A DNA stretch of 62,670 nt, counting the filler, from Basidioascus undulatus (Eukaryota): assembly GCA_000826855.1 (NCBI GenBank). It is 12 parts of 12 records of this genome, joined end to end, with 100 filler letters (N's around TTAATTAATTAA, not from the genome) between each part and the next. Parts side by side here need not be neighbours in the genome. Positions count along the whole stretch, not along the records: positions 56,232 to 59,401 come from JTLS01002503.1; 11 more parts are not named here. One strand, 5' to 3'. Every line of letters begins with the position of its first letter. Positions within the stretch are counted from its first letter, which is position 1. The notes beneath the pieces are model-generated. The model did no database searches. It was not told the DNA's origin and worked only from the letters and a program-made list of their open reading frames with translations. Both the position numbers and the translations under genes were made by a program. Shown one piece after another: positions 58,340 to 59,401 of the stretch.

Positions 58340-59401
58340 CCCTCCCTCTCTCTTTCCTCCAGCGTTCCGCCCCGCCCCGCGCACTCCCCCCTAGACGCCC
58401 AAACGATCCACCTCCTCCCCTCGCTGCACTCCTCGCACTCCCCGTCCCCTCGAAAAGGACCCACCGCGCCTCCGACCCTCTCCGCGCGTGCCCCCCCGGC
58501 CAGTCCCCACGCGCCCGCGTCCTCCTCCTCCCTCCCGGGACACCCGCTCCTAAAACCAGGCCCCCCCTCCCATCCGCCACGCACTCCGCGCCCCCACCTT
58601 TGATAATCCCAACCTAACCCTAAGTCCGTACCCCCCGGTGCGCGCGAAGCGGCGTCACAACAGGAGCACGGGGGAGAGGGACGTGAGCGGGTGTGTGGGA
58701 GTGGGGGGACAGAGGAGGCGGTACGCTTGCCGGAAAGCTCGGACCTGGGTGGGCGTCTCCGACGCGGAGATGCCGCCCAAGGGGGCCGCATGCGATCCCC
58801 CCGCTTCCCTTGTCCCCCTTCTTCCCCACCCCTGACGTCGGCGAGCGAGCTCCCACTCCCCGCCCGATCCCGCATCGGCCCGGCACTCCTCCCCCACACA
58901 CTCAGACGACCACCCACGTCGTCGCGTGGTCTCTCCCCCACGCGCTCCTCCCCCACCCTCCACCCAGACGTCCCACCGCCGCGCGCCCACCGCAGTCCGC
59001 CGCGCGCCGCCCCCCGCACCCTGCAGCCGGGCGGGGCCGTCCGGCGCGATGGCGGTCCCGTTTGAGTGCGCGCTGCCCCCCTTCCTTGTCCCAGACCACC
59101 CGGGCTGCTCTGCGCGCGCGGAAGGGGCCTCCCTCCCCACCAAGGAGGGTTGGGCGGGCCCACGGAGGAGGTCGCTGGGCCGGGAGGTCCGATGGGGCGG
59201 AAGTGGTTCGGGGCCTCGGGTCTAGTGCGCATGGAGTGCGCGGGGAGGAAGAGCGCTGGTGATGGGCCTGTGTTAGGCGGTCGTGCGCCTTACGGGCAGG
59301 CGGTCCGGCTCCCCTTTTCTTTTCCTCCTCTTCTCTCTTTCCCCCATGCCCCCCGCCCATCGCTCACCAAAGCCCACCGCGCTCCGCTTCCTCCCCCTGC
59401 T
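58340..59401 (+). ncRNA. Candidate telomerase RNA (ends approximate; 3' part may be cut by contig end)
   Basis: Template-like CCCAACCTAACCCTAA at 58608-58623, complementary to TTAGGG-TTAGG-TTGGG; many nested long-range complementary segments (58359-58423 with 59190-59259; 58636-58721 with 58801-58992); no recognisable protein in any frame. Confidence 0.75.

What the first reader, a model, noticed from the sequence alone, without database searches (positions are those of the whole stretch)
58359..59370. About 1 kb of nested long-range helices enclosing the template
Seen, paired by eye. Enclosing stem: CCAGCG 58359-64 with 59254-59; CCCCGCGCACTCC 58375-87 with GGAGTGCGCGGGG 59233-45 (13/13); CTAGAC 58391-96 with 59220-25; 58404-23 with 59190-210 (imperfect). 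Long arm 3' of the template: 58636-46 with 58980-92; AGGAGC 58662-67 with 58944-49; GGGGGAGAG 58670-78 with 58931-39; GTGTGTGGG 58691-99 with 58893-901; 58704-21 with 58801-18 (17/18 counting G-U); apical hairpin 58752-74. More hairpins follow at 59258-59370. The pairings are properly nested, interrupted by bulges and use G-U, which fits RNA structure better than a DNA inverted repeat, and they leave the template unpaired. Crossed pairings at 59066-59127 may be a pseudoknot, but I could not confidently place the triple helix or CR4/5.
Basis: partly seen in the sequence, partly recalled or inferred. Interest (0 to 1): 0.75.

Follow-up and report, generated by a model that had tools for sequence, protein, structure and literature searches.

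The report
Fungal telomerase RNA with three-unit template
This folded stretch is very probably the telomerase RNA gene of a little-studied fungus related to Wallemia: its 16-letter template spells out all three repeat types found mixed at this fungus's chromosome ends, and a decayed or diverged second copy with a shorter template sits elsewhere in the genome.

Summary
The helices are real. The 902-nt region folds better than shuffles (z -4.5, 0 of 20; local-composition shuffles z -4.1 and -5.2), leaving 58608-58623 unpaired. That 16-mer is the exact complement of TTAGGG-TTAGG-TTGGG. The genome's contig-end arrays are a mix of these three units (216 of 241 tokens in 11 arrays), joined mostly in template order. 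The 16-mer occurs 9 times in the genome: 8 in end arrays, once here. No (TTAGGG)3 was found. A TERT gene is present. Nearest named proteins are from Wallemia. The locus is head-to-head with NUF2. A second NUF2 has a diverged copy of the RNA upstream, with a short TTAGGG-type template that leaves no clear footprint in the arrays. Verdict: a telomerase RNA (about 0.9) whose multi-register template makes mixed telomeres. I could not place the pseudoknot, P6.1 or an Sm site, and obtained no orthologue, so covariation is untested. Published basidiomycete telomerase RNAs that I found are from smuts and Malassezia only. The scan has noted fungal telomerase RNAs in other genomes, none similar to this DNA.

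The parts
58359..59401 (+). Candidate telomerase RNA gene (copy a). 5' end inferred from the enclosing stem; 3' end not seen because contig C1672 ends at 59401
   Evidence: Folding; one match in the genome at DNA level; covered unspliced from 58373 to past 59401 by contig 15 of run X3
58608..58623 (+). Template CCCAACCUAACCCUAA, complement of TTAGGG-TTAGG-TTGGG
   Evidence: Only internal copy among 9 genome hits; explains 1255 of 1286 array bases at 3-nt overlap; predicted unpaired
58624..58630 (+). Template 3' flank GUCCGUA, identical in the second copy; can pair with 59291-97
   Evidence: 15-mer 58616-30 occurs exactly twice in the genome; stems in both copies; the pairing is one of several alternatives
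58375..58423 (+). 5' strands of the enclosing long-range stem
   Evidence: p 0.65-0.9
59190..59259 (+). 3' strands of the enclosing long-range stem
58680..58839 (+). Well-defined long arm 3' of the template, with apical hairpin 58753-73
   Evidence: Pair probabilities 0.9-0.99
59010..59026 (+). Block shared with the second copy (15 of 17 identical); role unknown
59045..59095 (+). Two blocks shared with the second copy (CGCGAUGG and CUUGUCCCAGA); candidate core elements, structure not resolved
   Evidence: The gapped pattern occurs exactly twice in the genome
59258..59396 (+). 3' hairpin domain and pyrimidine tract; no Sm-type site before the contig end
57979..58358 (.). 380-bp spacer between the NUF2 start codon and the RNA, with an AT-rich patch at about 58200-58242; probable shared promoter (inferred)
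   Evidence: Sequence; only one + strand ORF of 20 aa or more touches it, 57839-58075, antisense to NUF2 exon 1
56283..57978 (-). NUF2 kinetochore gene, head-to-head with the RNA
   Evidence: Pfam PF03800 on two exons; four introns skipped by contig 13 of run X3
55993..56131 (+). Telomeric array at the end of a different contig (C1671): TTAGG 20, TTGGG 5, TTAGGG 2 counted units; the inferred product of the template

Best explanation
58359 to beyond 59401 (+) encodes this fungus's working telomerase RNA, about 1.1 kb, probably transcribed from a promoter shared with NUF2. Long-range stems hold the 16-nt template single-stranded for TERT. The chromosome end can anneal in several registers. Annealing of TTAGG at the template's 3' end adds G and gives TTAGGG. 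Annealing of GG(TT) in the middle gives TTAGG. Most rounds stop before the 5' CCC; the rest finish with TTGGG, with occasional stutter (TTGGGG). One template therefore makes the mixed telomere. A duplicate beside the second NUF2 keeps only the TTAGGG-type part of the template and contributes little or nothing. Shown: the sequence match, uniqueness, junction bias, folding, TERT gene and paralogous blocks. Inferred: TERT binding, registers, promoter, ends of the RNA, status of the duplicate.
For: The 16-mer has 9 hits in 32.1 Mb: 8 in end arrays, 1 here. (TTAGG)3TT has 56 hits on 10 contigs, all in end arrays. 9 of 11 arrays run to the contig end with the G strand outward; 2 stop 17 and 70 nt short. 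No (TTAGGG)3. 216 of 241 tokens are the three template units. TTGGG follows TTAGG in 43 of 50 junctions (shuffle mean 29.5; 0 of 3000 reach 43); TTAGGG is followed by TTAGG in 15 of 17; junctions between two rare units number 8 against 18.6 (0 of 3000 as low). Parsing 1286 array bases leaves 31 unexplained at 3-nt overlap, against 372 without the 5' five bases and 487-550 for the second copy's template; at 4-nt overlap 101 against a minimum of 320 in 300 shuffled templates. Template unpaired, fold significant. TERT RNA-binding domain on C2311 (58.8 bits), with reverse-transcriptase-like motifs in neighbouring frames (motif labels recalled). Run X3, listed as 'DNA?', has a contig that skips four NUF2 introns, so I infer it is cDNA; another of its contigs covers 58373-59401 unspliced and runs 47 nt further. 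No Rfam family.
Against: No U-rich triple-helix pseudoknot was found. Two P6.1-like hairpins (59211-23, 59225-41) are at chance level (0.8 expected) and compete with the enclosing stem. No Sm-type site before the contig end. No orthologue was obtained, so there is no covariation. Of six orders of the three units, one leaves fewer bases unexplained (71 against 101), though with more cycles (312 against 209), and one ties. TTAGGG-to-TTAGG enrichment alone is weak (215 of 3000 shuffles reach it). The - strand also folds well. Contigs cannot show strand, ends or level of an RNA, and X3's RNA nature is my inference. The TERT RT part scored below the Pfam cut-off (RVT_1 E 0.007) and was not assembled across introns.
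Confidence: 0.9

Rival explanations
1. Both copies are active: this RNA makes TTAGG and TTGGG, and the second copy on C812 supplies part of the TTAGGG units, as with paired telomerase RNAs in plants. This is compatible with the locus being a telomerase RNA.
For: The second copy keeps the 15-mer and the downstream blocks despite unalignable surroundings and has an Sm-like site at L046:7978, which suggests selection. Several arrays begin with TTAGGG.
Against: No (TTAGGG)3 in the genome. No TTAGGG-TTAGGG junction inside the counted tokens (0 against 1.0 expected). Of 7 (TTAGGG)2TT hits, one opens the C586 array and six are interstitial. L046:7000-7900 folds no better than shuffles (z 0.0). This template alone explains the TTAGGG units.
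Confidence: 0.2
2. The 16-mer is an interstitial telomeric scar or a binding site for a telomere-repeat-binding transcription factor inside some other structured non-coding RNA or promoter; the true telomerase RNA lies elsewhere.
For: Short interstitial TTAGGG pairs exist in this genome, one with nearly the same flanks (C350). Pseudoknot and P6.1 are not placed.
Against: A scar would be a random piece of array, mostly TTAGG runs, not each unit once in the order that best explains the junctions. No other internal copy of the 16-mer exists in the assembly, though the assembly may be incomplete. The site is single-stranded inside a significantly folded 1-kb region.
Confidence: 0.05
3. The region is protein-coding on the - strand (350-codon ORF 58180-59232) or is an untranslated part of a neighbouring mRNA, and the folding is a by-product of GC-rich sequence.
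For: The ORF is open for 350 codons; both strands fold.
Against: No Pfam match and a low-complexity G/R/P translation typical of GC-rich shadow frames. Block shuffles do not remove the folding signal. It does not explain the match to the telomeres.
Confidence: 0.02
4. This copy is a dead duplicate and the C812 copy is the working telomerase RNA.
For: Only the C812 copy shows an Sm-like site in the sequence available.
Against: The C812 template leaves 487-550 of 1286 array bases unexplained at 3-nt overlap, against 31 for this one. Its region folds no better than shuffles.
Confidence: 0.02

Closest known systems
Ustilago maydis TER and Ustilaginales homologues (Logeswaran 2022, PMC9564094: abstract, parts 1-2 of 7 and passages read; Sanpedro-Luna 2023, PMC10035886: passages read)
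   Same: Basidiomycete; size class (1291 nt against about 1.1 kb here); template contains UAACCCUAA; long scaffold around the template.
   Different: UmTER has a 9-nt template for uniform TTAGGG and is cut from the 3' UTR of the Emi1 mRNA. Here the template is 16 nt with three units, and the upstream gene is on the opposite strand. Its A/U-rich pseudoknot, P6.1 and Sm-like site could not be matched here.
Putative Malassezia TERs (Sanpedro-Luna 2025, PMC12506658: abstract, sections 11 and 13 read)
   Same: Identified by template-to-telomere match; variant repeats explained by template changes and alignment slippage.
   Different: About 500 nt, one motif per species, proposed to derive from a coding transcript (NDK1); U-rich pseudoknot loop conserved.
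S. cerevisiae TLC1 and S. pombe TER1 heterogeneous telomeres (as reviewed in PMC7857110, passages read)
   Same: One template gives mixed repeats through partial copying and several alignment registers.
   Different: Here the heterogeneity resolves into three discrete 5-6-nt units, each written once in the template.
Bombus telomerase RNA, TTAGGTTGGGG repeat (Fajkus 2022, PMC9841428: passages read)
   Same: Compound TTAGG + TTGGG(G) unit; minor TTAGG runs from alternative annealing.
   Different: Insect Pol III RNA; the compound unit dominates there, whereas TTAGG runs dominate here. A convergence, not homology.
Telomerase RNA paralogues with different templates: plants (review PMC12133305, passages), Andrena bees (10.1101/2025.04.29.651168, passages), Zygosaccharomyces sapae (PMC8211666, passages)
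   Same: Duplicated RNA gene, single TERT locus found, templates diverged, synteny kept (NUF2).
   Different: The two copies here are no longer alignable outside short blocks, and only one leaves a clear mark in the telomeres. Paralogues as such are already described in a fungus.

Membership tests
Fungal telomerase RNA | Template complementary to the organism's own telomere repeat, longer than one unit | tested here: met
Fungal telomerase RNA | Template single-stranded within an enclosing helix | tested here: met
   Prediction only: unpaired 0.88, enclosing stems p 0.65-0.96; fold z -4.1 to -5.2
Fungal telomerase RNA | TERT gene in the genome | tested here: met
   PF12009 over cut-off on C2311; RT-like motifs; intactness not shown
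Fungal telomerase RNA | Transcribed as a long non-coding RNA | tested here: inconclusive
   Covered by a contig of a run whose NUF2 contig is spliced; strand and ends cannot be read from contigs; the run is listed as 'DNA?'
Fungal telomerase RNA | Template boundary element | tested here: inconclusive
   Copying appears to stop at 58608, as the printed arrays show no continuation into ATT; no stable helix directly 5' of the template
Fungal telomerase RNA | Pseudoknot with U-A.U triple helix | tested here: inconclusive
   A strict single-sequence search (U-rich loop, span up to 260 nt) found none; long inserts or C-rich triples would be missed; needs orthologues
Fungal telomerase RNA | CR4/5 three-way junction with P6.1 (4-bp stem, NUNGN loop; PMC3592445 passages) | tested here: inconclusive
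   Two candidates against 0.8 expected by chance; the RNA's 3' end is missing
Fungal telomerase RNA | Sm site near the 3' end | tested here: inconclusive
   None up to the contig end at 59401; one Sm-like site in the second copy
Fungal telomerase RNA | Covariation in orthologues | not testable with these tools
   No related eukaryote genomes held; the metagenome scan returned one distant NUF2 locus
Fungal telomerase RNA | Binds TERT and templates telomere synthesis | not testable with these tools
   Needs pull-down, reconstitution or template mutation
Ustilago-type mRNA-derived telomerase RNA | Lies in the 3' UTR of a same-strand protein-coding gene | tested here: not met
   The upstream gene NUF2 is divergent, 380 bp away; the one + strand ORF (78 aa) is antisense to NUF2 exon 1 and ends 284 nt upstream; unspliced or very short upstream ORFs are not excluded
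RNase P / MRP / SRP / U3 and other Rfam families | Covariance-model match | tested here: not met
   0 matches at gathering score in the window; at E up to 10, 8 weak matches (7 miRNA hairpin families, 1 lncRNA region), best E 0.29

The most novel reading that the evidence does not exclude
This is a telomerase RNA from a basidiomycete lineage outside smuts and Malassezia, made from its own promoter rather than cut from an mRNA, and caught in a telomere-sequence transition. After duplication of the NUF2-RNA segment, this copy expanded its template into three different units and took over telomere synthesis, while the other copy kept the ancestral TTAGGG-type template and is still expressed and under selection. 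The C350 insertion could record an intermediate template.
Probability: 0.3. Interest if true: 0.8.

Novelty: new variant of a known kind. Interest (0 to 1): 0.63.

Why it matters
Basidiomycete telomerase RNAs that I found in print come only from smut relatives and Malassezia (searches; open-access library only). A 2024 paper still lists the Kwoniella RNA as unidentified (PMC11185503, passage). A strong candidate from a Wallemia-related lineage gives a seed, and a synteny marker (NUF2), for finding others. It also tests whether the mRNA-derived route of Ustilago is general. The template is an unusually clean natural case for register choice: three units written once each, with frequencies readable from the telomeres, so single-base changes make sharp predictions. 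The diverged duplicate offers a fungal test of the 'duplicate first, change the template later' model from plants.

Tried and rejected
Canonical (TTAGGG)n telomeres: rejected, 0 hits for three units. Rfam: nothing. Sequencing runs: 3 holders in 2 studies, no RNA holder listed; one may be the source of the assembly. In run X3 the stretch 58056-58372 has no cover while X2 covers it; a hole in contigs proves nothing and is not used as evidence for a start site. The X1 joint 58400-59236 (21 letters) reflects the inverted stem or another locus and was not used. Global alignment of the two copies failed to put the templates in register. A generic collinear-block score was not significant: 17 of 132 control stretches scored as high. 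Homology of the copies therefore rests on the two patterns found exactly twice, both beside NUF2; those patterns were derived from the pair. Orthologues: the metagenome scan with a NUF2 exon gave 1 locus of 218 pattern matches, 34% identical, not examined further. The 3' continuation of the contig was not found. Whole-genome duplication: in 19.9 kb of C1668 two segments have diverged copies on different contigs and one has several; not collinear, undecided. Junctions of arrays with the template's 3' flank: 3 of 11 match two or more bases, a weak hint only. In one search the C1352 array was only partly counted (8 tokens) and the last token of each array was dropped; one search used longer regex-defined arrays. 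Earlier findings on this genome or on similar DNA: none. Supplements of the cited papers (alignments, TeloBase tables) were not read; they could hold this lineage's telomere motif or homologous elements.

Full report
Setting. The window is a chain of contigs joined by N spacers. The finding lies at the end of contig C1672 (window 56232-59401), and a DNA search of 58200-59401 finds only itself in the 32.1-Mb assembly. The organism is a fungus. A NUF2 exon has its best named matches in Wallemia (66-72%; 6 of 7 hits), and homocitrate synthase from the next contig also ranks Wallemia first among named hits (89-90%), though this enzyme is 81-90% identical across many fungi. I place it as a basidiomycete probably related to Wallemia; this is not a phylogenetic test.

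Observation. All nine stated helices can be drawn; seven are perfect or one pair short as stated, 58636-46/58980-92 is 10 of 11 and 58404-23/59190-210 is 14 of 20 ungapped. The region 58359-59260 folds at -439.3 kcal/mol, z -4.54 against 20 dinucleotide shuffles; the reverse strand gives z -3.55. Because the 5' part is C-rich and the 3' part G-rich, I also shuffled within 30- and 60-nt blocks: z -4.1 and -5.2, 0 of 25 each. The structure is long-range; 200-nt slices are unremarkable. In the ensemble the inner arm and enclosing stems hold, while the outer arm has competing partners. Rfam gives nothing at gathering score and only weak hairpin matches otherwise.

The decisive evidence is the telomere. 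The previous contig ends in an array of TTAGG with TTGGG and TTAGGG mixed in. Three TTAGGG in a row were not found in the genome; (TTAGG)3TT has 56 hits on 10 contigs. Eleven arrays were parsed: 9 reach the contig end, 2 stop 17 and 70 nt short. Of 241 tokens, 145 are TTAGG, 51 TTGGG and 20 TTAGGG. Window 58608-58623 is the exact complement of TTAGGG-TTAGG-TTGGG. That 16-mer has 9 hits: 8 in end arrays and this one. It is predicted single-stranded (0.88 against 0.40).

Junction order follows the template. TTGGG is preceded by TTAGG in 43 of 50 cases (shuffle mean 29.5, 0 of 3000). Two rare units are adjacent 8 times against 18.6 (0 of 3000). TTAGGG is followed by TTAGG in 15 of 17, which on its own is weak (215 of 3000). 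Parsing 1286 array bases as overlapping template copies leaves 31 unexplained at 3-nt overlap, against 372 if the 5' five template bases are removed. At 4-nt overlap 101 remain, against at least 320 for 300 shuffled templates. Against this, one other order of the three units leaves 71, though with 312 cycles rather than 209, and one ties at 101 with 348 cycles.

Mechanism (inferred). An end in TTAGG can pair with 58619-23 and gain G, giving TTAGGG. An end in GG or GGTT can pair in the middle and gain TTAGG. Most rounds stop near 58611, before the last CCC, and re-anneal, giving TTAGG runs; the rest finish as TTGGG. Four TTGGGG tokens fit stutter on the C run. The printed arrays show no copying past 58608. 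About 6 nt are added per round in the parse. Multi-register copying is known for budding and fission yeast (PMC7857110, passages) and as a minor product in Bombus (PMC9841428, passages).

Partner and expression. A TERT RNA-binding domain is on C2311, followed by frames with reverse-transcriptase-like motifs including the KVD and IDD aspartates (labels recalled). The RT Pfam score on a single exon is below cut-off. Run X3 is listed as 'DNA?', yet one of its contigs skips four NUF2 introns with splice-type ends, so I take it to be cDNA. Another X3 contig of 1076 nt covers 58373-59401 without joints and extends 47 nt beyond. Contigs do not give strand, ends or level. NUF2 starts 380 bp upstream on the other strand, and the only + strand ORF of 20 codons or more nearby is antisense to its first exon. 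A shared promoter is therefore more likely than release from an mRNA 3' UTR as in Ustilago (PMC9564094).

A second copy. Reads showed a second NUF2, found on C812 at about 70% nucleotide identity. About 3.2 kb upstream, in the same orientation, lies a 15-mer identical to 58616-30. It occurs exactly twice in the genome, as does a gapped two-block motif about 400 nt downstream in both copies. The 5' half of the template is replaced there, leaving a TTAGGG-type template of 8-9 nt that explains the arrays poorly (487-550 bases unexplained). The second copy has an Sm-like site but no excess folding over L046:7000-7900 (z 0.0; two 200-nt slices reach z -2.3 and -3.3). A generic block-chain test was not significant (17 of 132 controls), and global alignment failed. 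The template's 3' flank can pair with a downstream element in both copies, with three one-sided changes that keep pairing; with two sequences this is a lead only. I rate homology at about 0.85 and current function as open.

What was not found. No U-rich pseudoknot, no P6.1 above chance and no Sm site before the contig end (P6.1 consensus from PMC3592445 passages). No orthologue. These leave family membership resting on the template, the fold and TERT, not on the catalytic core. They are inconclusive rather than negative, because the RNA is very GC-rich, single-sequence searches miss pseudoknots with long inserts, and the 3' end is missing.

Novelty. Searches for basidiomycete, Agaricomycotina and Wallemia-lineage telomerase RNAs (listings, plus the papers named) showed only Ustilaginomycotina and Malassezia RNAs. 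PMC7857110 notes TTAGG telomeres in two basidiomycetes and PMC11185503 a variable motif in Kwoniella with the RNA unidentified. Paralogous telomerase RNAs are described in plants, bees and Zygosaccharomyces sapae. I saw no report of a template carrying three different units once each (listings and passages). The library is open-access only and supplements were not read. The scan's earlier notes list 44 findings for the words 'telomerase RNA fungal', of which 8 were shown, all on other genomes; none changed my reading. Verdict: a known kind of RNA, in a new lineage, with an unusual template and a diverged duplicate.

Noticed in passing
L046:7050-7990 (G000:C812, about 23050-23990): Diverged second copy of the RNA gene upstream of a second NUF2, with a shorter TTAGGG-type template and an Sm-like site; an unidentified ORF (L046:5566-5904, no Pfam match) lies between them.
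   Followed up: partly
L049:1499-1519 (G000:C350, about 2712-2732): Interstitial 21-mer matching the template and both flanks with one extra base (TTAGGG-TTAGGG-TTGGG type), without other RNA blocks; possibly a telomerase-made insertion or a relic of an older template.
   Followed up: partly
L006 end (G000:C586, about 7330-7562): A telomeric array is added directly onto sequence that looks like the 5' end of 18S rDNA (recalled, not tested), itself preceded by short telomere-like units on the other strand; possibly a healed break in the rDNA.
   Followed up: no
window 55014-55992; ends of G000:C533 and C2072: Three telomeric contigs share related subtelomeric sequence. The window copy has a 226-aa ORF with a Cys/His-rich motif and no Pfam match; possibly a telomere-targeted retroelement.
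   Followed up: no
ends of G000:C1352 and C1433 (L034, L035): Both arrays are followed by the same short non-telomeric tail, so they may be internal arrays next to an inserted element rather than true ends.
   Followed up: no
L063-L067 (G000:C944, C2134, C2593, C370, C700): Five interstitial sites of two TTAGGG units followed by TTA; two share downstream sequence, suggesting a repeat element or a protein-binding motif.
   Followed up: partly
window 24000-43900 (G000:C1668): Several segments have diverged copies at 74-84% identity (one piece 92%) on other contigs; with the duplicated NUF2 this hints at old, possibly large-scale duplication.
   Followed up: partly
window 58997: Runs X2 and X3 read G where the assembly has C, inside the RNA; it may be an assembly error or a strain difference.
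   Followed up: no
window 61200-62365: Homocitrate synthase gene on the next contig; used only for lineage.
   Followed up: yes
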